Below are positions 1,226 to 32,569 of a stretch of DNA of 40,147 nt, in pieces. Every line of letters begins with the position of its first letter. The stretch's first letter is position 1. Location: positions 1-40,147 of the forward strand of contig JBAZOX010000001.1 in assembly GCA_041648535.1 (NCBI GenBank). Direction: 5' to 3'. The DNA comes from Desulfobacteria bacterium (lineage in GTDB: Bacteria > Desulfobacterota > UBA8473). The translations under genes were made by a program, and so were the position numbers. The notes below the pieces were generated by a model. The model had not been told where the DNA came from. It saw only the letters and a program-made list of their open reading frames with translations, and ran no database searches.

Positions 1226-1418
1226 GTAACTATTCAGGCACAAAGAGACAAAGGCACATAGGCACAAAGTTGTAGGAATACGATCGGAATGCAGGACATA
1301 ACCTGTCCAAATACCGCTTTGTAAACATTTTATAGGAACTTAATCAACTCATTCTCTTCAGATCTCTCGACTTTGTGCCTTTGGTGCTCTGTGCCTTTGT
1401 GCCTACCTGAGTAGTAAC
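1226..1418. repeat. Heptamer-hairpin element A (GTAACTATTCAGG ... CCTGAGTAGTAAC ends, GGCACAAAG-type arms, about 95-nt centre)
   Basis: The arms ggcacaaagagacaaaggcacataggcacaaag and ctttgtgcctttggtgctctgtgcctttgtgcc are imperfect reverse complements. The end motifs are shared with the elements at 3280, 14832, 15040, 19547 and 26098. Confidence 0.75.
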
Positions 1419-2067: not shown

Positions 2068-2080
2068 GTTTTTAAAAGGT

Positions 2081-2185
2081 GACGGCTTTGTAAAAAGTCC
2101 ATCTGCGGCGTTCCGCCTCATTCCTTCGGATTTGCGCGCCTTGCATCTGGAGCTTTTTACTGTGCCGTCTGATTTTTTTTACGAC
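2081..2185. repeat. MITE-like palindromic repeat, copy 1 (GACGGC..GTAAAAAG..TCCA..TG ends)
   Basis: It is the reverse complement of 5428-5574 at near identity, apart from a 36-nt indel. It creates the false N-terminal extension of the 2042 ORF ([28 protein letters not shown]). Confidence 0.8.
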
Positions 2186-3279: not shown

Positions 3280-3400
3280 GTAACTATTCAGGTAGGCACA
3301 GAGCAGAGCGGAGCAGGGTCGTGAATCGTGAAGCGTGAATCGATTTACGATTTACGGATTACGAATTTGTGCCTTTGCCACTTTGTGCCTGAGTAGTTAC
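3280..3400. repeat. Heptamer-hairpin element B (GTAACTATTCAGG ... CCTGAGTAGTTAC)
   Basis: The 13-nt terminal inverted repeat has one T/C difference. It has nested arms: GGCACAGAG / CTTTGTGCC outside and CGTGAAT x3 / ATTTACG x3 inside. Confidence 0.8.
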
Positions 3401-5427: not shown

Positions 5428-5574
5428 GTCATAAAAAGTCAAAAATCAGACGGCACAGTAAAAAGCTCCAGATGTAAGGCGCGCAAATCCGAAGGAATGA
5501 GGCGTACTTACCTGTACGCTGCAATAACTGAGGATGCAGCGGAACGCCGCAGATGGACTTTTTACGAAGCCGTC
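5428..5574. repeat. MITE-like palindromic repeat, copy 2 (with 36-nt central insertion)
   Basis: It matches the reverse complement of 2081-2185, with extra tacttacctgtacgctgcaataactgaggatgcagc at 5505-5540. It creates the false N-terminal extension of the 5534 ORF. Confidence 0.8.
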
Positions 5575-8745: not shown

Positions 8746-9564
8746 ATGAACACACTGTTTTTCAAGATCGTATTGGTCTTTTATTTAGCCGGAACATTTA
8801 GCTATCTATTGTACCTGTTTAAACAAAGACCCCGCATTTCTAAGGCTGCCACTATTATCCTGACCAGTGGTTTTGTTTTTCATACCATAAGTTTAATCCT
8901 GAGGTATCTTGAAGCGGGGTACACCCCAATCACCAACCTTTATGAAGCGCCTTCATTCCTAGCATGGGCAATAGTTGGTGTCTACCTGTTTATTCAATTT
9001 AAATATAGGATTACTTCTCTTGGCTCCTTTATTTCCCCTGTCGCATCCATCTTAACCCTTGTCTCTTCTGCCTTTTCCAAAGAGATTGTCCCTCTCTCGC
9101 CTATATTGAGGAGCTTCTGGTTGCCTATTCATGTAATTCTGGCATTTCTAGGCGATGCTATTTTTGCCCTGGCCTTCTGTGCCGGAGTTATGTATCTGAT
9201 ACAGGAACATCAGATAAAGTCAAAAAAGATCGGCTCCTTTTACCATAGGCTGCCCTCTTTAAAGCTACTGGATGATATAAATCATTATTCTCTAACTATA
9301 GGGTTCCTCTTGCTTACCATGGCAATGGTTACCGGTTCAATATGGGCAAGGCACGCATGGGGGTCTTTCTGGAGCTGGGATGCCAAACAGGTCTGGTCAT
9401 TGCTTACATGGGTCTTTTATGCTGCCTTGCTGCACGGAAGGATAAATATAGGTTGGAGAGGGAGGGTAGCTGCCGTTTTTGCAATTCTTGGTTTTCTTGC
9501 AGTTATGTTTTCCTTCCTTGGCGTAAATACCCTGCTTTCAGGGTTACATACGTATGATAGATAA
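8746..9564 (+). CDS. CcsA/HemX-like cytochrome c assembly family membrane protein
   Basis: A polytopic membrane protein with the W-rich WGSFWSWDAKQVWSLLTW motif. It occupies the hemX-like position next to hemA. Confidence 0.75.
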   Translation: MNTLFFKIVLVFYLAGTFSYLLYLFKQRPRISKAATIILTSGFVFHTISLILRYLEAGYTPITNLYEAPSFLAWAIVGVYLFIQFKYRITSLGSFISPVASILTLVSSAFSKEIVPLSPILRSFWLPIHVILAFLGDAIFALAFCAGVMYLIQEHQIKSKKIGSFYHRLPSLKLLDDINHYSLTIGFLLLTMAMVTGSIWARHAWGSFWSWDAKQVWSLLTWVFYAALLHGRINIGWRGRVAAVFAILGFLAVMFSFLGVNTLLSGLHTYDR

Positions 9565-9602
9565 TTAAATTTTTCATTTTTCAGTATGAACTAAAGTAGA
9601 AG

Positions 9603-10871: not shown

Positions 10872-10875
10872 CTTA

Positions 10876-10948
10876 GGTGGATAGACTGTAGACTGTTAGG
10901 CTGTAGGCTGTAGCCTAACAGCCTTCAGCCTATAGCCTAAACAACCTG
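10876..10948. repeat. Heptamer-hairpin element C (CTGTAGG-type, inverted orientation, terminal motifs missing)
   Basis: ttaggctgtaggctg (10895-10909) pairs with cagcctatagcctaa (10926-10940). It is homologous to the reverse complement of 15040-15121. Confidence 0.7.
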
Positions 10949-10977
10949 TTGTACTTGACATTAAAGGAACTATTATC

Positions 10978-12306
10978 GTGAAGAGGATACTGACAATAGC
11001 AGGTTCTGATTCCGGAGGAGGGGCAGGTATTCAGGCAGATTTGAGGACCATTGCCCTTTTGGGTGGTTTTGGGATGAGTGTAGTTACTGCCCTGACCGCC
11101 CAAAACACCCTGGGGGTTCAGGATGTCTATCCCATTTCCCCTGAATTTATAGAAAAACAGATAGATTCCGTTATCACAGATATAGGGGTGGATGTAGTTA
11201 AAACCGGGATGTTGGCTAATGCTCAGGTGATTAAGGTCGTTGCCAGGAAGATTAAAGAGTACAGGATAGAAAAACTCATCCTGGATCCCGTGATGGTAGC
11301 CAAGGGGGGGGAGCCCTTGCTGTCCAAAGATGCCATAGATACCCTTATCGAAGAACTGATACCCCTGGCTTTTCTCATTACCCCGAACCTGCCTGAGGCG
11401 TCGGCAATATGTAGAAAACCGGTCGAAAACCTGGACGAAATGAGGGAAGCTGCCAAAAATATCTACCAAAAGGGAGCAAAGAATGTCCTCATCAAGGGAG
11501 GCCATTTGCCGGGAAGATCAATAGACATCCTTTTTGACGGGAAAAGTTTTTTCGAGTATGATTCTGAAAGGATACATACTGAGAACACCCATGGGACAGG
11601 ATGCGTATATTCGGCAGCCTTGACTTTTGAGATTGCAAAAGGCAACCATATTCACCAGGCAGTTAAGAATGCCAAAGAGTTTGTGACCAGCGCCATCAGA
11701 AACTCTTTGCCTTTGGGTGGAGGACACGGTCCTGTCAACCCTTATGGTGTCTTCTCAAAAGAGATTCAACGTTACCATGTGATTTTCCAAGTTAAAGAGG
11801 CAGTTAGAGTGCTGAAAAAAGAAAAGATAGGACACCTTGTCCCGGAAGTTCAGTCAAATCTTGGCATGGCTCTTCCTTATGCAGAAAGGGTTGAAGACGT
11901 AGCCGCTGTACCAGGCCGTATTGTCCGTTTCGGAAATACTGTTGCAACTGTATCAGACCCTGAATTTGGAGCATCTCAGCATATAGCCAAAATCATCTTA
12001 ACTGTGATGAGGTACCAAAGCGATATGAGATCTGCCATGAATATAAGATACTCAGAGGACACTATTGAAAGATGCAAGAATATAGGGTTAAGGGTTAGAT
12101 ATTTTGACAGGAGAAAAGAGCCCGACCATGTTAAGGAAGCGGAGGGGTCTTCTCTAGAATGGGTAATGGAGAATTCACTGAAGGAGGAAAAAGGGATTCC
12201 AGATGTTATCTATGATACAGGAGACGTTGGCAAAGAACCCATGGTCAGAATACTCGGCAAAGATGCCAGGGAAGTTGTTGGAAAGGTTTTAAGGATTGCA
12301 GAGTGA
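10978..12306 (+). CDS. thiDN: ThiD-ThiN fusion (HMP/HMP-P kinase plus ThiN-type thiamine-phosphate synthase domain)
   Basis: The N-terminus ILTIAGSDSGGGAGIQADL is ThiD-like. The C-terminal roughly 180 aa (HLVPEVQSNLGMAL...VPGRIV...GASQHIAK) resembles the archaeal ThiN domain. GTG start after AAGGA. Confidence 0.75.
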   Translation: MKRILTIAGSDSGGGAGIQADLRTIALLGGFGMSVVTALTAQNTLGVQDVYPISPEFIEKQIDSVITDIGVDVVKTGMLANAQVIKVVARKIKEYRIEKLILDPVMVAKGGEPLLSKDAIDTLIEELIPLAFLITPNLPEASAICRKPVENLDEMREAAKNIYQKGAKNVLIKGGHLPGRSIDILFDGKSFFEYDSERIHTENTHGTGCVYSAALTFEIAKGNHIHQAVKNAKEFVTSAIRNSLPLGGGHGPVNPYGVFSKEIQRYHVIFQVKEAVRVLKKEKIGHLVPEVQSNLGMALPYAERVEDVAAVPGRIVRFGNTVATVSDPEFGASQHIAKIILTVMRYQSDMRSAMNIRYSEDTIERCKNIGLRVRYFDRRKEPDHVKEAEGSSLEWVMENSLKEEKGIPDVIYDTGDVGKEPMVRILGKDAREVVGKVLRIAE

Positions 12307-14736: not shown

Positions 14737-14841
14737 TACTGCTTCATTATGTAAATATCTCCATTCGGCATTCTTTTCTTCAATAAGCCTCAATTTCCAT
14801 GGCCCGCCCCACTTCTTTATCTGCTTTTCTCGTAACAGCTC
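14737..14841 (-). pseudogene. C-terminal remnant of a GIY-YIG (YhbQ/UPF0213-like) nuclease gene
   Basis: ELLREKQIKKWGGPWKLRLIEEKNAEWRYLHNE resembles the conserved REKQIKKW..K..LIE..NP.W.DL tail. The GIY-YIG N-terminal half is absent, and the 5' part of the ORF is read from hairpin element F. Confidence 0.55.
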
Positions 14842-14938
14842 AGGTTCAAAGTTCCAAGGTTCACGGTTCAAGGTTAGACTGATGAAATATGAAGAGCACA
14901 AAGTAGCCAGCCGTGAACCTGACAACCTGAGTAATTGC
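14832..14938. repeat. Heptamer-hairpin element F (GTAACAGCTCAGG ... CCTGAGTAATTGC; GGTTCAA/GTGAACC arms)
   Basis: The left arm and centre are homologous to 26098-26203. Confidence 0.7.
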
Positions 14939-14951
14939 CAAAAGTTTTACT

Positions 14952-14978
14952 TAAAGTTTTTCACTTCTTTGCCGATTT
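14952..14978 (+). promoter_or_regulatory. Sigma-28 (FliA) promoter, copy 1
   Basis: TAAAGTTT, 11 nt, GCCGATTT. It is paralogous to 16769-16795. Confidence 0.65.
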
Positions 14979-15039
14979 AATACTTAGGTTGTTGCATAGG
15001 TTAAATTTGTTGCTATCGGTTCATTGGTTACATACGGTA

Positions 15040-15121
15040 TCACTACTCAGGTTGTTTAGACTGTAGGCTGTTAGGTCACAGGCTAACAGTCTACAGCCTA
15101 TCCACCCGAGCAGTTACTGTT
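15040..15121. mobile_element. Heptamer-hairpin element D inserted in the duplicated leader, flanked by CGGTA direct repeats
   Basis: The filled site is cata-CGGTA-[82 nt]-CGGTA-aaggg. The paralogous empty site at 16848-16860 is cata-CGGTA-aaggg. Confidence 0.7.
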
Positions 15122-15138
15122 CGGTAAAGGGATAAAAC

Positions 15139-15246
15139 ATGTCCGAGTTATTTTACTCCATCTCTGAGGTAGTTGATTTATTCTCAGGGGAAAGGTTATT
15201 CCTGTCATTGATCTACGATTGAAGTTCGGTATGGACTCACTCGAAT
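15139..15246 (+). pseudogene. Chimeric remnant: first 16 codons of the HTH gene fused to an internal cheW fragment
   Basis: 15123-15182 matches 16853-16912, and 15183-15246 matches cheW 17438-17501. The fused frame stops after 27 codons. Confidence 0.75.
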
Positions 15247-15286
15247 TTAATAAAAACCCAAAAAATAATCATCAGGAGGGATAAAA

Positions 15287-16771
15287 ATGTTGGAGAATAT
15301 GAAACTGGGAACAAAGATTATGGGCGGGTTTATTATTGTATTGGTTTTAACAGGGGTGATCTCGTATGTGGGTTGGGATGGCATGCGGGGTGTGGTGGAC
15401 AGGGTAGAGAAGGCCGACGATATGAACCGCATGGTCAAAATGATCCTACAGGCGCGTCGACACGAGAAGAATCTCATCATAAGGGAAGACAAGAAATACA
15501 TAACAGAGGTCAAAAAAGAGGTCAACGATTTGAAAAAGCAGGCCAAGGAGACGAAGGATAAATTGGAAGACCCTGTAAACAAGAAGCAGATGGATGAGGT
15601 TCTGATAGCGGTTGACAAGTACGAAAATGCCTTCGCTAAGCTTGCCGAGATTGTGGGAAAAATGATGGAGAAGGAGGAGCGGGAAAAACTCATTAGTGAA
15701 TTGGACAAAGGCTTAGCTGAGACAGGGAGGACAGTTGAGAAAGAGTGCGCTGATGCCCGTGCCGACCAGAAGAAAAAAATGGAGGCACAGATGGCAAGGG
15801 CTAATATGCTCATAATCGGCGGATCCTTAGTGGCTATCGCATTGGGACTAGGAATGGCATTTTTTGTAACCCTAAGCATCACAAAATCTATTAATCGGGT
15901 CGCAGAAGGCCTTACCGATGGTGCGGATCAGGTGGCTTCGGCCTCTGCACAGGTTTCCTCATCCAGTCAGTCCCTGGCAGAGGGAGCTTCGGAACAGGCC
16001 TCTGGGTTGGAGGAGACCTCATCTTCGATCGAGGAGATGGCCTCTATGACCAAGCAGAATGCCGATAATGCCAATCAAGCCAACGCCCTCATGGCGGATA
16101 CAAGCAAGGTGGTGGAGGAAGCCAATCTTTCAATGGTGGAATTGACAGAATCAATGAAGGATATCTCAACGGCCAGTGAGGAGACGGCCAAGATCATCAA
16201 GACGATTGATGAGATTGCATTCCAGACCAATCTGTTGGCCCTGAATGCGGCCGTGGAGGCGGCCAGGGCCGGAGAAGCAGGAGCCGGATTTGCGGTGGTG
16301 GCTGATGAGGTGAGGAATCTGGCGATGCGTGCTGCGGATGCGGCCAAGAATACAGCCAATTTAATCGAAGGCACAGTCAAGAAGATCAAGAATGGTTCGG
16401 ATATTGTGGCAAAGACAAATGAGGCTTTTGGGAAAGTAGCAACAGGGGCCAAGAAAGTGGGTGAGCTGGTTGGAGAGATTTCAGCCGCCTCGGATGAACA
16501 GGCTCAGGGAGTTAATCAGATCAACAAGGCCGTAGCCGAGATGGATAAGGTGGTGCAGCAGAATGCGGCCAATGCGGAGGAGTCGGCTTCGGCGTCAGAG
16601 GAGATGAATGGCCAGGCGGAGCAGATGAAAGAGTTTGTCGGAGACCTGGTTATGCTGGTAAGGGGCAGCAATGGAAATGGGGACATCTGCAGGAGTCAGG
16701 GTAGTAAGGCCGGAACAGGTCATTCCCTTGGAAGAAGATTTTATGGATTTTTAGAAAGAAATTTTACTTAA
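15287..16771 (+). CDS. Methyl-accepting chemotaxis protein 1 (helical periplasmic sensor, no HAMP; C-terminal tail out of frame)
   Basis: It has two TM segments and the conserved tip [38 protein letters not shown]. The last roughly 28 residues do not match the paralogues, but the +1 frame does. Confidence 0.85.
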   Translation: MLENMKLGTKIMGGFIIVLVLTGVISYVGWDGMRGVVDRVEKADDMNRMVKMILQARRHEKNLIIREDKKYITEVKKEVNDLKKQAKETKDKLEDPVNKKQMDEVLIAVDKYENAFAKLAEIVGKMMEKEEREKLISELDKGLAETGRTVEKECADARADQKKKMEAQMARANMLIIGGSLVAIALGLGMAFFVTLSITKSINRVAEGLTDGADQVASASAQVSSSSQSLAEGASEQASGLEETSSSIEEMASMTKQNADNANQANALMADTSKVVEEANLSMVELTESMKDISTASEETAKIIKTIDEIAFQTNLLALNAAVEAARAGEAGAGFAVVADEVRNLAMRAADAAKNTANLIEGTVKKIKNGSDIVAKTNEAFGKVATGAKKVGELVGEISAASDEQAQGVNQINKAVAEMDKVVQQNAANAEESASASEEMNGQAEQMKEFVGDLVMLVRGSNGNGDICRSQGSKAGTGHSLGRRFYGFLERNFT

Positions 16772-16795
16772 AGTTTTTCACTATTCTGCCGATAT
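16769..16795 (+). promoter_or_regulatory. Sigma-28 (FliA) promoter, copy 2
   Basis: TAAAGTTT, 11 nt, GCCGATAT. It lies 74 nt upstream of the HTH gene. Confidence 0.7.
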
Positions 16796-16868
16796 TAATA
16801 TCAGGTTGTTGCATCGGTTAAATTTGTTGCCATTGATTCATTGGTTACATACGGTAAAGGGATAAAAC

Positions 16869-17084
16869 ATGTCCGAGTTATTTTACTCCACCTCTGAGGT
16901 AGCTGATTTATTCGGGATCAATAGGGTTACAATTTATAGGTGGGTAAAAAAGGGGAGAGTAAAAGCGTATAGGATCGGTAAGCATATTAAAATACCTGTT
17001 TCCGAGGTGGAGAGATTAGGGAGGGAATTCGGTTTGCCGGAAATGATCTTTCCCGGATGCCTTCAAGTTAAGTGCCTAAAGTGA
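16869..17084 (+). CDS. Excisionase-family (MerR-superfamily) helix-turn-helix DNA-binding protein
   Basis: STSEVADLFGINRVTIYRWVKKGRVKAYRIGKHIKIPVSEV is the classic excisionase-type HTH pattern. Confidence 0.75.
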   Translation: MSELFYSTSEVADLFGINRVTIYRWVKKGRVKAYRIGKHIKIPVSEVERLGREFGLPEMIFPGCLQVKCLK

Positions 17085-17233
17085 GCTAAAGTTTAAAGTG
17101 CCTAAAGTTATTTAAAAAGGAAATTCCTATACTATGAGCTTAAACAGAAAGAATGAACTGAGGGAAAACAGGTAGATGACTGTTAGTTGGTGAAAAGACG
17201 TTTTTAAAATATGAAAAAAGGAGGTCTTCAATT

Positions 17234-17794
17234 ATGCAATCTGCTTTGAATGAAGTAAAAGAAAACTCGGCATCTAAAACATTGGAAGGATTGGAAAACA
17301 AAGAGGGGAAATACCTTACGTTTGGTCTCAGGGGTGAGGAGTACGGTTTAGAAATCCTTAAGGTTAAAGAAATTATCGGTATTATGAATATTACTTTTGT
17401 TCCTCATACACCGATGTATGTGAAGGGGGTGATCAATCTCAGAGGAAAGGTTATTCCTGTCATTGATTTACGACTGAAGTTCGGGATGGACTCACTCGAA
17501 TACAATGAACGAACATGTATCGTCGTCGTTGACATCGCAGATAAGTCAGGAAACAAGGTCATGGTGGGCATTGTGGTGGATTCCGTTTCCGAGGTCTTGA
17601 ATATCAAGGCTGAAGAAATCGAGGATACACCAACCTTTGGTGTCAGGTTGAACACGGATTGTATACTGGGTATGGCTAAGGTCAAAGGGGGAATCAAGAT
17701 TCTGCTCGATATTGACGAGGTATTGGAGGCTGAGGAAGCTGCTGCATGGGACAGCGCTGATAACCATTCAGAACTGACAAACAATAGGGGGTGA
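17234..17794 (+). CDS. cheW: Chemotaxis coupling protein CheW
   Basis: Contains [21 protein letters not shown]...[18 protein letters not shown]. Confidence 0.9.
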
Positions 17795-19073: not shown

Positions 19074-19544
19074 ATGAAAAAAGTATTTATGCTGATTTTA
19101 GTCTGTACTTTATTACTGGCAGTTGTTTATACACCAAGCACGGGTACCGCCGCACAGGAAATGGGGGAGAGGTCCACCGCTCTCTTAGTAGAGAAGGCCG
19201 TCGCTTTCTTAAAAGCAAATGGGAAAGACGCTTCTTTTGCAGAGTTTAACAAAAGTAACGGAAAATTTTCAGACGGCAGTCGGTATGTTTATGTCGTAGA
19301 CTCTAAAGGGAATACGTTGGCCCATGGGGGTAATAGCGGTATGATTGGTAAAAATTTATACGAATTGAAGGACTCGGATATGAAACCTTTTATGAAAGAA
19401 ATTATTAATAATGCGATGTCGGAAGGTTTTGGATGGGTTGATTATAAATGGCCAAATCTTCCCATAAGCAACAAAGCCGTACTCAGATCAGCTTATTTTA
19501 AAAAGGTTAATGATGTTATTATCATCTCTTCAACACTAAAATGA
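19074..19544 (+). CDS. Secreted stand-alone single-Cache (sCache_2-like) domain protein
   Basis: It has a signal peptide, MKKVFMLILVCTLLLAVVY. It then carries FAEFNKSNGKF.DG.RYVYVVDSKGNTLAHG...GKNLYELKD...GFGWVDYKWP, the sCache_2 pattern. Confidence 0.6.
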   Translation: MKKVFMLILVCTLLLAVVYTPSTGTAAQEMGERSTALLVEKAVAFLKANGKDASFAEFNKSNGKFSDGSRYVYVVDSKGNTLAHGGNSGMIGKNLYELKDSDMKPFMKEIINNAMSEGFGWVDYKWPNLPISNKAVLRSAYFKKVNDVIIISSTLK

Positions 19545-19546
19545 GG

Positions 19547-19628
19547 GTTACTACTCAGGTTGTTTAGGCTGTAGGCTGAAGGCTGTTAGGCTACAGCCTA
19601 CAGTCTAACAGTCTACAGCCTATCCATC
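19547..19628. repeat. Heptamer-hairpin element E (GTTACTACTCAGG left end; CTGTAGG-type arms)
   Basis: It is in the same orientation and subfamily as element D. The right terminal motif is absent. Confidence 0.7.
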
Positions 19629-19655: not shown

Positions 19656-21263
19656 ATGAAGAAAATTTTTAAAAATATGAGTATGTCAAAGAAATTAATG
19701 TTAGCTCCAACAGTCGTATTCATCTTCCTCATTGCTCTTTCCTATGTGTCTTATACCGGACTTTCAAATCAGAAAATGGCAATAGAGGATATCGTTAACA
19801 ACCGATTTAAGGCATACCAGAGAAGTTCTGAGATTGCCAAAAGTATTGCCAATGTACATGCAAATCTCTACAAGATCATCAGTTGGACAGGTGCAAATCG
19901 TGATGCGGATATAATCCAGGCTCTCTCCGATGAACAGAAAGCCCAGATTAAAGGGAATATTGAGCCGATACAAAATATCTTAAAATTTAAGATGTCCACA
20001 GGGAAGGAAAAGAAGCTTCTTCAAGCCTCTCTGGAGCAGTTGATAGAGTATCAGAAACAGGCATTAGCGGTATGTGATGTGGTAAAGACCGATGTCAGCA
20101 TGGCAACTATGTTTATGGGTACTGCCGACGAAAAATATAACACCCTCAACCAAACCCTGAGGGAACTCCTCGTATTCGAAGAGATGCTCAGTGAAGAGAG
20201 GTACAATTTTTCTCTTAAAAGCTTCAACTCTGTATTAACCGCCTTTGTGATATTGCTGGTAACCGCCATTGTAATATCGGTATTGAGCAGCCTCTTTATG
20301 TCCAGGCTTATCACCCAACCGGTTAAACAAACAATGGATGTCATCAAAAATGTTGCCGATGGTGATTTAACTCAGGATATTGAAGTGGACTCCCGAGATG
20401 AGATCGGTGAACTCGCGGAGGCTATCAACACGATGCGCGTGAAAATGGGAGAGGCAGTTGGTCAATCGGTAGCGATTTCCCACACCTTATCCGAATCAGC
20501 ATCCGAGCAGGCTGCTTCGTTGGAGGAGACATCTGCCTCTCTGGATGAAACAGCCTCTATGACCAGGCAAAACGCCGGCAATACAACCGAGGCCAATAAC
20601 CTGATGGCGTTGGCCATGGAGACCACGGAAAAGGCCAATATTTCCATGGCTGATTTAACCAAATCAATGAAGGAAATTGCCGGTGCCAGCGAACAGGCAC
20701 AGAAAATCGTTAAGAGTATTGATGAAATTGCCTTTCAAACCAATCTTCTTGCTTTGAATGCGGCAGTCGAGGCAGCCCGTGCGGGTGAAGCAGGTGCCGG
20801 TTTTGCCGTAGTTGCCGACGAGGTGAGGAATCTGGCGCTACGGGCAACGGAGGCCGCCAAAGGCACCTCCGGTTTAATAGAAGATATCGTCAAAAAGGTC
20901 AGGAACGGGGAAGGTCTGGTTTCCCTCACCAACGATGCATTCAGTCAGGTAACGACCAACTCCACGAAGGTTGTGGAATTAATGGGCGAGGTTGCAGCAG
21001 CCTCTCAGGAACAAGCCCAGGGAATAGATCAGATCAACAAGGCCGTGGCTCAGATGAGTACGGTGACACAGAGGAATGCTGCCAGTTCAGAAGAATTAGC
21101 CTCAATCATGTCTATGTTTAAAACTGAGAATCATAGAGGGAAGATTACCCCAGAGAAGCTACACCCCCAAAAGAGCGGCAGAAAAAAAATGATCTTTTCG
21201 TCCCCCGGTGGAGAAGTAACCCCCGGGAATTTTATGTCCTTAAAAGAACCGGAGTTCGTTTAA
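19656..21263 (+). CDS. Methyl-accepting chemotaxis protein 3 (4-helix-bundle sensor plus HAMP)
   Basis: It has two TM segments, a HAMP domain (PVKQTMDVIKNVADGDLTQDI...IGELAEAINTM) and the conserved signalling tip. Confidence 0.9.
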   Translation: MKKIFKNMSMSKKLMLAPTVVFIFLIALSYVSYTGLSNQKMAIEDIVNNRFKAYQRSSEIAKSIANVHANLYKIISWTGANRDADIIQALSDEQKAQIKGNIEPIQNILKFKMSTGKEKKLLQASLEQLIEYQKQALAVCDVVKTDVSMATMFMGTADEKYNTLNQTLRELLVFEEMLSEERYNFSLKSFNSVLTAFVILLVTAIVISVLSSLFMSRLITQPVKQTMDVIKNVADGDLTQDIEVDSRDEIGELAEAINTMRVKMGEAVGQSVAISHTLSESASEQAASLEETSASLDETASMTRQNAGNTTEANNLMALAMETTEKANISMADLTKSMKEIAGASEQAQKIVKSIDEIAFQTNLLALNAAVEAARAGEAGAGFAVVADEVRNLALRATEAAKGTSGLIEDIVKKVRNGEGLVSLTNDAFSQVTTNSTKVVELMGEVAAASQEQAQGIDQINKAVAQMSTVTQRNAASSEELASIMSMFKTENHRGKITPEKLHPQKSGRKKMIFSSPGGEVTPGNFMSLKEPEFV

Positions 21264-21272
21264 GCTTTATAT

Positions 21273-21296
21273 AACAGCGGGCTTAAGCCTGCTGTT
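21273..21296 (+). terminator. Strong hairpin after MCP3 (no clear U-tract)
   Basis: AACAGCGGGC and GCCTGCTGTT form a 10-bp stem with a TTAA loop. Confidence 0.4.
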
Positions 21297-21331
21297 GTAA
21301 TTACTGTGAACTGTGAACCGTGAACTGTTAC
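21297..21331. repeat. Short TGTGAAC-heptamer repeat bounded by GTAATTAC / GTTAC
   Basis: gtaattac tgtgaac tgtgaac cgtgaac tgttac. It has no complementary arm. Confidence 0.5.
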
Positions 21332-32404: not shown

Positions 32405-32414
32405 TGAGGAAAAA

Positions 32415-32549
32415 ATGACGACCTCGTAAAAAGTCAAAATTTACCAGCTTTTGTCATTCCGGGCTTGACCCGGAATCCAGTATTTTCGAATAGTTGTGGA
32501 TTCCGGCTTTCGCCGGAATGACGGGGAGGGAGACTTTTTACAGCGTCAT
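32415..32549. repeat. MITE-like palindromic repeat (ATGACG..GTAAAAAGTC ends; GTCATTCCGGGCTTGACCCGGAATCCAG core)
   Basis: The terminal inverted repeats are atgacgacctcgtaaaaagtc and gactttttacagcgtcat. There is an internal inverted pair, cattccgg..ccggaatg. It shares GTAAAAAGTC with the 2081 and 5428 copies. Confidence 0.75.
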
Positions 32550-32569
32550 TAATTTTGGGAAGAGTTTTT

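What the first reader, a model, noticed from the sequence alone, without database searches (positions are those of the whole stretch)
15035..15126. Filled versus empty paralogous site with a 5-bp CGGTA duplication: direct evidence that a hairpin element transposed
The leader upstream of MCP1 (14941-15182) is a paralogue of the leader upstream of the HTH gene (16759-16912). The second copy reads ...ttggttacataCGGTAaagggataaaacatg (16852-16856). The first reads ...ttggttacataCGGTA[82-nt hairpin element, 15040-15121]CGGTAaagggataaaacatg.

The insertion is precise and is flanked by a direct duplication of CGGTA, the signature of transposition. No transposase is encoded within the 82 nt, so this behaves as a MITE of the heptamer-hairpin family.
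Basis: seen in the sequence. Interest (0 to 1): 0.7.

Follow-up and report, generated by a model that had tools for sequence, protein, structure and literature searches.

The report
Hairpin MITE inserted in chemoreceptor leader
An ~80-base hairpin-forming mobile element sits in the untranslated leader of a chemotaxis receptor gene; its family spans several bacterial phyla, makes 8-bp (not 5-bp) target duplications, and derives from the poorly understood "23S rRNA intervening-sequence protein" elements.

Summary
The MCP1 leader (14942-15183) and the HTH leader (16759-16913) are colinear except for an exact 87-nt gap, which is the 82-nt hairpin plus one CGGTA. An orthologous MCP leader in a related metagenome species (L119) is also empty, so a single insertion in the window lineage is the simplest history.

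The element belongs to a large family with 13-bp terminal inverted repeats, GTWACTAYTCAGG...CCTGARYAGTWAC. Of 57 two-ended copies, 25 carry a perfect 8-bp target duplication, and these come from MAGs labelled as at least six phyla. The family rule is therefore 8 bp, not 5.

In the family register the window copy is 15039-15117 (79 nt). Adding 8 gives 87, exactly the gap. Its flanking 8-mers are CATACGGT and TGTTCGGT, matching at 5 of 8 positions, so CGGT(A) is a partial remnant.

Long family members encode a PF05635/TIGR02436 four-helix-bundle "23S rRNA IVS" protein. Short copies with intact duplications keep fragments of that gene, so they are internal-deletion derivatives (MITEs).

No transposase was found, so the mobilising enzyme is unknown. 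One rival remains: an older insertion later lost from the "empty" sites by CGGTA microhomology deletion.

The parts
14952..14978 (+). sigma-28 (FliA)-type promoter of leader copy 1: TAAAGTTT (14952-14959), 11-nt spacer, GCCGATTT (14971-14978). The same motif in copy 2 lies at 16769-16795.
   Evidence: Read directly from the sequence. The match to the FliA consensus TAAAGTTT-N11-GCCGATAA is from my knowledge of enterobacterial class-3 promoters. The motif is conserved in all 7 aligned leaders. It places the element in the 5'UTR, about 50 nt downstream of the predicted start.
14942..15038 (+). Leader copy 1, the segment upstream of the insertion (paralogue of 16759-16855)
   Evidence: BLAST 88.9%; alignments A1 and A3
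15031..15038 (.). Left-hand 8-mer CATACGGT, the presumed target-site copy in the family register. It is identical to the empty paralogous site.
   Evidence: the 8-bp family rule comes
15039..15117 (+). The element in the family register (79 nt). Left TIR is ATCACTACTCAGG (15039-15051, 2 mismatches to GTWACTAYTCAGG). Right TIR is CCCGAGCAGTTAC (15105-15117, 1 mismatch). The interior is a CTGTAGG/CTGTTAG heptamer hairpin. The S23p-sense orientation of the family is on the - strand here.
   Evidence: Pattern hits; 93.4% identity to the L024 copy in the closest MAG; folds. The - strand reads ...CCTAACAGCCTACAGTCTAAACAACCTGAGTAG, homologous to the 3' end of the L017 S23p ORF.
15118..15125 (.). Right-hand 8-mer TGTTCGGT. 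It matches the left 8-mer at 5 of 8 positions, with mismatches at positions 1, 2 and 4 next to the element end.
   Evidence: The length check 79 + 8 = 87 equals the alignment gap.
15035..15039 (.).
15122..15126 (.).
15139..15222 (+). Remnant of the HTH gene start (27 codons, MSELFYSISEVVDLF... then out of register) fused to a cheW fragment (15182-15254)
15287..16771 (+). MCP1 (HBM sensor plus MCP signalling domain), the gene downstream of the leader. Its RBS AGGAGG lies at 15274-15279.
   Evidence: Pfam
16852..16856 (.). Empty paralogous site in the HTH leader (...ggttacataCGGTAaaggg...)
1226..1418 (.). Family copy A (GTAACTATTCAGG...CCTGAGTAGTAAC, GGCACAA-type repeats). Flanking 8-mers TATTAGTT/CCTTAGTT match at 6 of 8.
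3280..3400 (.). Family copy B (perfect 13-nt TIRs, GTGAATC-type heptamers), with no surviving TSD
10875..10951 (-). Degenerate copy of the same CTGTAGG subfamily between hemA and thiDN. It is old, because it is also present in L094 and L119.
14832..14938 (.). Family copy C (GTAACAGCTCAGG...CCTGAGTAATTGC, GGTTCAA heptamers), immediately upstream of the leader
   Evidence: the orthologue in L119 is interrupted by another MITE
19547..19625 (+). Copy E (intact left TIR GTTACTACTCAGG, right end lost). In L118 a different family member with a perfect 8-bp TSD AAAATGAG sits 1 nt away at the orthologous site.

Best explanation
The hairpin is a non-autonomous DNA transposon (a MITE). It belongs to a family defined by termini GTWAC..., a 13-bp TIR GTWACTAYTCAGG, heptamer-repeat hairpin arms and an 8-bp target-site duplication. 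The family's long members carry only a four-helix-bundle '23S rRNA intervening-sequence protein' gene (PF05635/TIGR02436, S23p, Avd-like). The short members are internal-deletion derivatives of those. One such derivative inserted into the 5'UTR of MCP1, about 50 nt downstream of a duplicated sigma-28-type promoter. The insertion came after the HTH-cheW leader had been duplicated in front of MCP1, and most probably after the window lineage split from the L119 lineage. Shown here: family membership, the family's TIR/TSD rule, the filled/empty states, and derivation from S23p elements. Inferred: the element was mobilised in trans by a still unidentified transposase making 8-bp staggered cuts (DDE-type behaviour). 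Also inferred: the original duplication was CATACGGT and its right copy now reads TGTTCGGT. Also inferred: the element is co-transcribed as a stable stem-loop without a terminator tail, so it is tolerated in leaders and operon spacers, possibly as an RNase III substrate like rRNA IVSs.
For: Filled versus empty: alignments A1 and A3 show window copy 1 and L002 filled. Five other leaders have the same 87-nt gap: window copy 2, L119 copy 1 (orthologous MCP leader), L119 copy 2, L113 and L117. One insertion explains this, against at least two identical deletions. Of 57 two-ended copies, 25 have perfect and 35 have at least 6/8 8-bp direct repeats exactly abutting GTWAC...GTWAC, while displaced controls give none at 7/8 or better. 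Copies with intact TSDs are 49-390 nt. A perfect 8-bp TSD also occurs in the window's own clade: L009, L024, and L118 3637-3817 with AAAATGAG. Length fit: 79-nt canonical element + 8 = the 87-nt gap. Parent element: L017 (443 nt) encodes a 127-aa PF05635 protein (E 7.5e-31; TIGR02436 E 2.4e-31). Short copies with perfect TSDs contain S23p fragments (L067, L077, L045, L023, L054, L056, L068, L071). The hairpin is strong and lacks a terminator-like T tail. More filled/empty or same-site events occur in the clade: L094 2620-2796 against window 9560-9580, and L118 against window 19547.
Against: This copy's TSD is imperfect (5/8) and its outermost left triplet is ATC rather than GTW. If the insertion post-dates the L119 split, three changes within 4 nt of the right 8-mer exceed what uniform neutral decay would predict (my rough estimate: a few per cent). 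The second lineage-level filled/empty pair (L094) also shows only a 5-nt exact repeat, AAATT. No transposase with matching ends was found in the window. None was found among 729 ORFs of the 109 loci. None appeared as a large TIR+TSD-bounded unit. No full-length S23p copy with an intact TSD was seen; L017 matches at 3/8. Taxon labels are those of MAG depositors. Nothing here is experimental.
Confidence: 0.75

Rival explanations
1. Old insertion, later precise loss. The element was already in the ancestral leader before the leader was duplicated, and its 8-bp TSD decayed to a 5-nt remnant. The 'empty' sites (copy 2 and L119 copy 1) are revertants made by hairpin-stimulated slipped-strand deletion between the two CGGTA repeats.
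For: The duplication is exactly the residual microhomology (5 nt) of a degenerate 8-mer pair. The element has decayed TIRs, with 3 of 26 positions off consensus. L119 copy 1 carries a separate 63-nt deletion between TGTC microhomologies about 25 nt away, so such deletions do occur in this leader. The L094/window pair shows the same '5-nt only' pattern. Strong hairpins are known to promote deletion between flanking short repeats (established knowledge of precise transposon excision).
Against: It needs at least two independent identical deletions, one in the copy-2 ancestor and one in L119 copy 1, against one insertion. All five sampled empty leaders from three lineages show the same clean junction. 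An insertion at this site is still required at some earlier time.
Confidence: 0.15
2. RNA-level (retro) spread. The IVS-like hairpin RNA is excised (by RNase III) and copied back into DNA with the help of the Avd-like S23p protein and a reverse transcriptase, and the flanking repeats arise from target-primed insertion.
For: S23p is a weak homologue of the DGR accessory protein Avd, which works with a reverse transcriptase (PF22296 E 1.8e-4; NF033474 E 3.7e-6). rRNA IVSs of this type are excised as RNA by RNase III (PMC4990558). The - strand RNA folds better than the + strand (-44 vs -39.7 kcal/mol).
Against: Fixed 8-bp TSDs abutting invariant GTWAC termini are typical of DNA transposition. RNase III cuts inside the stem in Coxiella (PMC4990558), so a cDNA would lack the outer TIR. 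No reverse transcriptase gene recurs near the copies.
Confidence: 0.04
3. REP/REPIN-RAYT or IS200/IS605-type palindrome-associated element, moved as single-stranded DNA by an HUH (Y1) transposase.
For: It is a short extragenic hairpin repeat that is abundant in intergenic spacers. The terminus contains GTAG/CTAC (CCTGAGTAGT), reminiscent of the REP GTAG tetranucleotide (a resemblance from memory).
Against: Those systems leave no target duplication and insert next to a fixed tetra- or pentanucleotide. Here the flanks are 8-bp duplications of variable, AT-rich sequence. No Y1 transposase was seen in the window.
Confidence: 0.02
4. Not a mobile element: an assembly artefact or a locally evolved regulatory hairpin.
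For: The window's MCP1 looks chimeric relative to contigs L001 and L002, so the assembly is not above suspicion.
Against: The filled site is present in an independent contig with a SNP. The insert is 93% identical to a copy at an unrelated locus in another genome (L024). It carries the family TIRs.
Confidence: 0.01

Closest known systems
23S rRNA intervening sequences (IVS) that carry an S23p / PF05635 ORF (Leptospira, Coxiella burnetii, Xanthomonas-type)
   Same: Long members of this family encode the same protein family (PF05635/TIGR02436). The architecture matches that described for the Coxiella IVS: terminal inverted repeats forming a long stem, tandem heptameric repeats, then the S23p ORF (PMC4990558).
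   Different: These copies lie in mRNA leaders and operon spacers, not in rRNA helices 9, 25 or 45. A defined 13-bp TIR and 8-bp TSD are shown here, whereas IVS mobility has only been hypothesised (PMC4990558 citing Burgin 1990 and Ralph & McClelland 1993). I did not test whether rRNA IVSs share the GTWAC termini or a TSD. RNase III excision was not tested.
Bacterial MITEs such as Correia/NEMIS (Neisseria), RUP, Nezha, Chunjie
   Same: They are short, non-coding, TIR-bounded, TSD-flanked, multi-copy and intergenic. They are co-transcribed as hairpins (Correia RNA is cut by RNase III, from my knowledge) and show presence/absence polymorphism.
   Different: The TIR sequence and TSD length differ (8 bp here, TA for Correia). 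The interiors are variable heptamer arrays. The parent is not a recognisable IS but a cassette with a four-helix-bundle gene. Copies with intact TSDs occur in MAGs labelled as several phyla.
Mobile insertion cassettes (MICs, e.g. MICBce1): IS-type ends around passenger genes, with no transposase
   Same: The S23p-bearing ~440-nt units fit the definition: TIRs, one passenger ORF and no transposase.
   Different: MICs have an identified cognate IS (IS231 for MICBce1, from my knowledge). None is identified here.
REP/BIME/REPIN elements with RAYT transposases; IS200/IS605 PATEs
   Same: Extragenic palindromic hairpins that are abundant between genes.
   Different: They make no TSD and are mobilised as single-stranded DNA by HUH enzymes. 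The 8-bp TSD test here argues against membership.
Cyanobacterial heptamer repeats (STRR) flanking four-helix-bundle genes
   Same: S23p homologues on cyanobacterial plasmids are flanked by long heptamer arrays (L121-L124).
   Different: Those loci lack the GTWACTAYTCAGG TIR. In L121 the upstream and downstream arrays are on the same strand, not inverted.
IS families with 8-bp TSDs (e.g. IS66, whose ends start GTAA; IS256, ISL3, IS6, IS1595)
   Same: An 8-bp duplication. IS66 ends also begin GTAA (from memory).
   Different: There is no sequence match beyond GTAA. No such transposase was found next to or inside any copy. Membership was not tested further.

Membership tests
MITE (miniature inverted-repeat transposable element) | Short (under ~500 bp), with no transposase ORF | tested here: met
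   79-82 nt and no ORF. Family copies with intact TSDs are 49-390 nt.
MITE (miniature inverted-repeat transposable element) | Terminal inverted repeats shared by all copies | tested here: met
   GTWACTAYTCAGG / CCTGARYAGTWAC occur in window copies A, B and E and in more than 50 public copies. This copy matches 11/13 and 12/13 positions.
MITE (miniature inverted-repeat transposable element) | Fixed-length target-site duplication | tested here: inconclusive
Clearly met at family level: 8 bp, 25/57 perfect, and no control pair at 7/8 or better. This copy matches at only 5/8 (CATACGGT/TGTTCGGT).
MITE (miniature inverted-repeat transposable element) | Filled and empty homologous sites | tested here: met
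   Paralogous and orthologous empty sites. Further pairs: L094 vs window 9567 and L118 vs window 19547.
MITE (miniature inverted-repeat transposable element) | A cognate autonomous element encoding a transposase with the same ends | tested here: not met
   None found in the window. None found among 729 ORFs of 109 loci. None found as a TIR+TSD unit larger than 400 nt. The search space was only about 0.8 Mb, so absence is not proven.
S23p / 23S rRNA IVS-type element | Encodes a PF05635 / TIGR02436 four-helix-bundle protein | tested here: met
   Met for the family: L017 E 7.5e-31 and fragments in short copies. The window copy keeps only the sequence homologous to the last ~10 codons plus the stop. 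There is no S23p gene in the window.
S23p / 23S rRNA IVS-type element | Long terminal stem plus tandem heptamer repeats | tested here: met
   Compared with the Coxiella description in PMC4990558.
S23p / 23S rRNA IVS-type element | Located in an rRNA helix and excised from the precursor by RNase III | tested here: not met
   This copy is in an mRNA leader, and Rfam finds only tRNA-Thr in the window. RNase III cleavage is not testable with these tools.
REP/REPIN-RAYT and IS200/IS605 PATE | No target duplication; insertion next to a fixed short motif; associated Y1/HUH transposase | tested here: not met
   Variable 8-bp duplications and no Y1 transposase in the window.
   No copy has a 5-bp repeat abutting the canonical termini. 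The 5-nt repeats seen (L070, L112) lie offset inside an 8-mer register.

The most novel reading that the evidence does not exclude
The 'intervening-sequence protein' (S23p, PF05635/TIGR02436) elements, known for 30 years as unexplained inserts in 23S rRNA and as stray genes in cas and other operons, may be a single cross-phylum superfamily of DNA transposons. They would have GTWAC termini and 8-bp target duplications and be currently active as MITEs. They carry no recognisable transposase. Either an undescribed enzyme mobilises them in many phyla, or the Avd-like four-helix-bundle protein is itself the element-encoded mobility factor. This would give rRNA IVSs a concrete origin and the protein family a testable function.
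Probability: 0.3. Interest if true: 0.8.

Novelty: new member of a known kind. Interest (0 to 1): 0.55.

Why it matters
As an isolated event, this is one MITE insertion in a 5'UTR, which is ordinary biology. It matters because of the family it exposes. First, the family has a sharply defined TIR/TSD signature in MAGs labelled as at least six phyla, which implies a widespread and unidentified transposition machinery. Second, it ties the very large, uncharacterised PF05635/TIGR02436 protein family to a mobile cassette; more than 5,700 90%-identity clusters scored E<=1e-20 among the 8,000 candidates examined. That offers a mobile-insertion reading of why these genes turn up inside rRNA genes, cas operons and housekeeping operons (PMC3936711, PMC11270868). 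Third, it makes the old hypothesis that rRNA IVSs are transposition remnants directly testable. Locally, the element sits in a sigma-28-driven chemoreceptor leader and may alter mRNA processing or stability.

Tried and rejected
1. Looking for the same strain with an empty allele. Exact-protein look-ups returned only contigs identical to the window (L001-L003), all filled or not covering the site.

2. Metagenome scans. The copy-1-specific junction 23-mer gave 0 hits. The second scan was wasted because I wrote the gap as N{9,12} when the real gap is 6 nt, so its 0 hits mean nothing.

3. Other collections. Viral contigs gave 1 hit only, so phage carriage is not an obvious vector. Plasmid blastn with the element found no match.

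4. Searches for a transposase. I tried Pfam on all large window ORFs. I tried all-vs-all clustering of 729 ORFs from the 109 loci. I also tried generic searches for GTWAC...GTWAC units with a TSD, up to 5-6 kb. Nothing was found.

5. Full-length S23p copies with an intact TSD. P0068 and P0082 loci turned out to be single old, degenerate insertions conserved across samples. L017 has no TSD.

6. Alternative registers for the window copy. Starting the element at GTA(15037), with a 2-nt 'TC' insertion, requires a 2-nt deletion plus 2 substitutions in the TSD. The ACGGTAAA register needs odd ends. Both were rejected as less parsimonious than 79 + 8 = 87.

7. TIR pair covariation. Compensatory double changes exist, for example CAGC/GCTG in L094. 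They cannot separate 'hairpin selected' from 'both ends must match the same transposase'.

8. Positional bias of TSD mismatches toward the element-proximal bases of the right copy. By hand, plus three local copies, the counts for positions 1-8 were 10, 7, 8, 4, 3, 5, 5, 6. This is suggestive but not significant (chi-square about 6, 7 df).

9. attC/integron resemblance (GTTAGGC/GCCTAAC heptamers). I dropped it: there is no integrase and a TSD is present.

10. Rfam at gathering threshold found only tRNA-Thr.

11. Literature strings for the TIR found only unrelated primer matches.

Full report
**1. The observation**

Window 14942-15039 matches 16759-16856 (88.9%), and 15122-15183 matches 16852-16913 (96.8%). 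The only gap is 87 nt, equal to 15040-15121 plus one CGGTA. CGGTA occurs at 15035-15039 and 15122-15126 in copy 1, and once (16852-16856) in copy 2.

The insert is a strong hairpin. Folded as DNA it gives -18.9 kcal/mol (z -4.8). As + strand RNA it gives -39.7, and as - strand RNA -44.0 (z -6.1). A near-identical independent contig (L002, 99.87% over 14.3 kb) has the same filled site with one SNP inside the element.

**2. Context**

Copy 2 is the promoter and 5' end of an intact 71-aa HTH_17 gene, followed by cheW, MCP, Cache, MCP, cheR, cheD and related genes. Copy 1 is a decayed partial duplicate of that region. It holds the leader, the first ~15 HTH codons, and then a 73-nt internal cheW fragment (15182-15254 ~ 17437-17509) before MCP1's own RBS and start codon.

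Both leaders contain TAAAGTTT-N11-GCCGAT(T/A)T (14952-14978 and 16769-16795). This matches the FliA/sigma-28 consensus as I know it and is conserved in all seven aligned leaders. The element therefore lies in a 5'UTR, roughly 50 nt after the predicted transcription start. It has no terminator-like T tail.

The window is otherwise housekeeping DNA (aro, hem, thi, che and flagellar genes) with no transposase. Its closest GTDB genome is a groundwater Desulfobacterales MAG (JACQWO01), at 92.6-96.8% identity over hemA-thiC.

**3. An orthologous empty site**

Homologues of the HTH protein led to contig L119. L119 is syntenic with the window (hemA-thiD-thiC-147aa-MCP-HTH-cheW) and 82-94% identical in aligned segments. 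It has both leader paralogues, and both are empty. The MCP leader reads ...ggttatatgCGGTAaaagg... and the HTH leader reads ...ggttatatgCGGTAaaggg.... HTH leaders from a third lineage (L113-L117) are also empty.

The leader duplication therefore predates the split between the window and L119 lineages. One insertion in the window lineage explains all seven sequences. The alternative is ancestral presence followed by at least two identical deletions.

That alternative is not excluded. L119's MCP leader has a separate 63-nt deletion between TGTC microhomologies next to the site. A hairpin flanked by CGGTA repeats is a plausible substrate for slippage.

**4. What the element is**

The window holds several hairpins with different heptamer interiors but the same ends, GTWACTAYTCAGG...CCTGARTAGTWAC. 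They lie at 1226-1418, 3280-3400, 14832-14938, 15039-15117 and 19547-19625, with a degenerate copy at 10875-10951.

A few of these are evident chance hits inside genes (for example L012 and L073). The rest come from MAGs labelled Desulfobacterales, Desulfobulbia, Nitrospirae, Firmicutes (UBA4049, Peptococcaceae), Elusimicrobia, Verrucomicrobiota, Omnitrophica, Bacteroidia, Brocadiaceae, Spirochaetales and others.

Orienting the copies and locating their right ends gave 57 two-ended copies. In 25 of them the 8 nt before GTWAC equal the 8 nt after GTWAC exactly. Five more match at 7/8 and five at 6/8. With the right 8-mer displaced by 12 nt, no pair reaches 7/8, and shuffled partners give 0.7% perfect matches.

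The duplicated 8-mers differ from copy to copy and are AT-rich, with G or C favoured at position 8. A perfect 8-bp TSD also occurs in the window's own clade: L009 and L024 in JACQWO01, and L118 3637-3817. L118 has the TSD AAAATGAG, a variant TIR GTAACCGTTCACGG, and sits 1 nt from where window copy E sits. This is the anatomy of a TIR transposon that makes 8-bp staggered target cuts.

**5. The parent of the MITEs**

Longer copies contain coding sequence. L017 (443 nt between perfect TIRs) encodes a 127-aa protein. It matches PF05635 '23S rRNA-intervening sequence protein' (E 7.5e-31) and TIGR02436 'four helix bundle protein' (E 2.4e-31). It also matches the DGR protein Avd weakly. The ORF's stop codon is the TAG inside the TIR (CCT GAG TAG TTAC), and its last ~10 codons are the heptamer arm.

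Short copies with perfect TSDs retain different pieces of this ORF. L067 keeps aa 1-54, L077 keeps aa 1-35 plus 80-117, and L045 and L023 keep aa 79-116. L054, L056, L068 and L071 keep the C-terminus. They are internal-deletion derivatives that were still mobile after the deletion.

The - strand of the window copy ends ...CCTAACAGCCTACAGTCTAAACAACCTGAGTAG, which is the same tail. The protein family is very large: more than 5,700 90%-identity clusters scored E<=1e-20 among the 8,000 candidates examined, many of them on very short contigs. Two examples sit in spacers inside operons: between a HisKA histidine kinase and a sigma-54 response regulator, and between 2-oxoacid:ferredoxin oxidoreductase subunits.

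**6. Re-reading the window copy in the family register**

The canonical ends place the element at 15039-15117. The left end is ATCACTACTCAGG, so the outer triplet reads ATC instead of GTW. The right end is CCCGAGCAGTTAC.

Its 79 nt plus an 8-bp duplication equal 87 nt, exactly the alignment gap with no indel needed. The left 8-mer CATACGGT equals the empty-site sequence. The right 8-mer is TGTTCGGT, a 5/8 match with mismatches at the three of four positions nearest the element.

This reading is an inference, and it has a weakness. Three changes in 4 nt within the time since the L119 split is more than uniform decay predicts. A second filled/empty pair in the clade shows the same partial pattern: L094 2620-2796 against window 9560-9580 has ATTAAATT vs GAAAATTT, with only AAATT exact. 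So does window copy A (TATTAGTT vs CCTTAGTT).

Several public copies also look like this (L011, L070, L084). My hand count of mismatch positions is U-shaped but not significant. I cannot say whether this reflects decay, junction-proximal repair effects, or the deletion history described in section 3.

**7. How it most likely works**

Shown: the element is a non-coding member of a TIR/TSD family. It is present/absent between paralogues and orthologues, and the family derives from S23p cassettes.

Inferred: mobilisation in trans by a transposase with DDE-like behaviour. None was found. The window has none. No protein family recurs among 729 ORFs in the 109 loci. No TIR+TSD-bounded unit larger than 390 nt exists in about 0.8 Mb.

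Also inferred: the element is transcribed from the sigma-28 promoter as a stable stem-loop and tolerated because it carries no terminator. By analogy with rRNA IVSs, which RNase III excises (PMC4990558), it may be a processing site.

**8. Comparison with what is known**

The Coxiella IVS is described as a 'selfish element' with a 28-bp terminal inverted-repeat stem, tandem heptameric repeats and an S23p ORF. Its origin is called unclear, and transposition is only a hypothesis attributed to Burgin 1990 and Ralph & McClelland 1993 (PMC4990558).

PF05635 genes have been noted inside cas loci and in rRNA insertions of CPR bacteria as functionally uncharacterised (PMC3936711, PMC11270868). I found no paper in the searchable library containing the TIR strings, nor one describing TIR/TSD for this family. 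This is absence within that library only.

Cyanobacterial plasmid S23p genes are flanked by heptamer arrays but lack this TIR. REP/RAYT and IS200/IS605 models fail the TSD test.

The element behaves like a MITE, and the S23p units like mobile insertion cassettes. Membership of the 'MITE' class is met on every feature except an identified autonomous partner.

**9. Verdict**

The interpretation that a MITE transposed is supported in substance but wrong on the TSD: the family makes 8 bp, and this copy retains 5/8. It is also over-confident about directness.

The single event is ordinary. The family behind it appears undescribed and bears on the long-open question of what IVS/S23p elements are.

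Noticed in passing
window 14952-14978 and 16769-16795: Both duplicated leaders carry a near-consensus sigma-28 (FliA) promoter, TAAAGTTT-N11-GCCGAT(T/A)T. The partial duplication of the HTH-cheW region appears to have donated a flagellar-class promoter to MCP1.
   Followed up: partly
window 15878-16771 (junction ~16672-16682): MCP1 looks like a recombinant of two tandem MCP paralogues that are separate genes in metagenome contigs L002 (516 aa) and L001 (>=788 aa). The window follows L002 up to 16682 and L001 from about 16683. Relative to L118 and L119 the window also lacks 114 nt here, between AATGG repeats. This is either a real deletion/recombination or an assembly collapse.
   Followed up: partly
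window 11825-12286: The 462 nt encoding the ThiN domain of the ThiD-ThiN fusion are absent, cleanly and in frame, from the close relatives L094 and L119 (thiD only, 288 aa). This is a domain gain or loss between near relatives.
   Followed up: no
window 2074-2176, 5449-5574, 32411-32556; L119 3861-4010: A second, unrelated MITE-like family has TIRs of about GACGGCNNNGTAAAAAG. In L119 a ~150-nt copy is nested inside heptamer element C. The window (14845-14900) is the empty site, with TTCAAG / aTCAAG flanking the insert.
   Followed up: partly
L024 4309-4387, L077 1711-1999, L086 5584-5756: In three copies the left GTW triplet is replaced (TTT, CTT, TTG). The replacing triplet equals, or nearly equals, the 3 nt that follow the right-hand TSD, giving an 11-nt direct repeat. 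This is too regular to be chance, and the mechanism is unexplained.
   Followed up: partly
window 19539-19625 vs L118 3629-3825: Two different family members occupy almost the same intergenic position in two lineages. L118 has a perfect TSD AAAATGAG, and the window copy starts 1 nt later and has lost its right end. This suggests a preferred target or insertion hot spot. Window 21263-21331 is homologous to the right half of the L118 element.
   Followed up: partly
L094 2620-2796 vs window 9560-9580: A 177-nt family member (GTAACTATTCAGC...GCTGAGTAGTTAC, with a compensatory G/C swap in both TIRs) is present in the closest MAG and absent from the window. Only AAATT is exactly duplicated.
   Followed up: yes
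window 17072-17134: A 63-nt segment rich in AAGTGCCTA-type 9-mers is absent from L113 and L117, which share a 9-nt overlap at the junction. L118 has a different insert at the same place. This is another indel-prone spacer, between the HTH gene and cheW.
   Followed up: no
L017 152-594; L125 1197-1754; L128 1440-1950: The S23p ORF reads through the heptamer arm and stops at the TAG inside the TIR (CCT GAG TAG TTAC). Old degenerate S23p copies sit co-oriented inside operons and are conserved across samples. This may explain reports of these genes inside cas operons as insertions rather than Cas functions.
   Followed up: partly
L119 4190-4215 vs window 15139-15203: L119's MCP leader has lost 63 nt between two TGTC microhomologies. 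This shows that microhomology deletions occur in this leader.
   Followed up: yes
L121-L124 (cyanobacterial plasmids): Four-helix-bundle genes on cyanobacterial plasmids are flanked by long heptamer arrays (for example 16 x CTAAAAG) but lack the GTWAC TIR. One lies between cas6 and cas4.
   Followed up: partly
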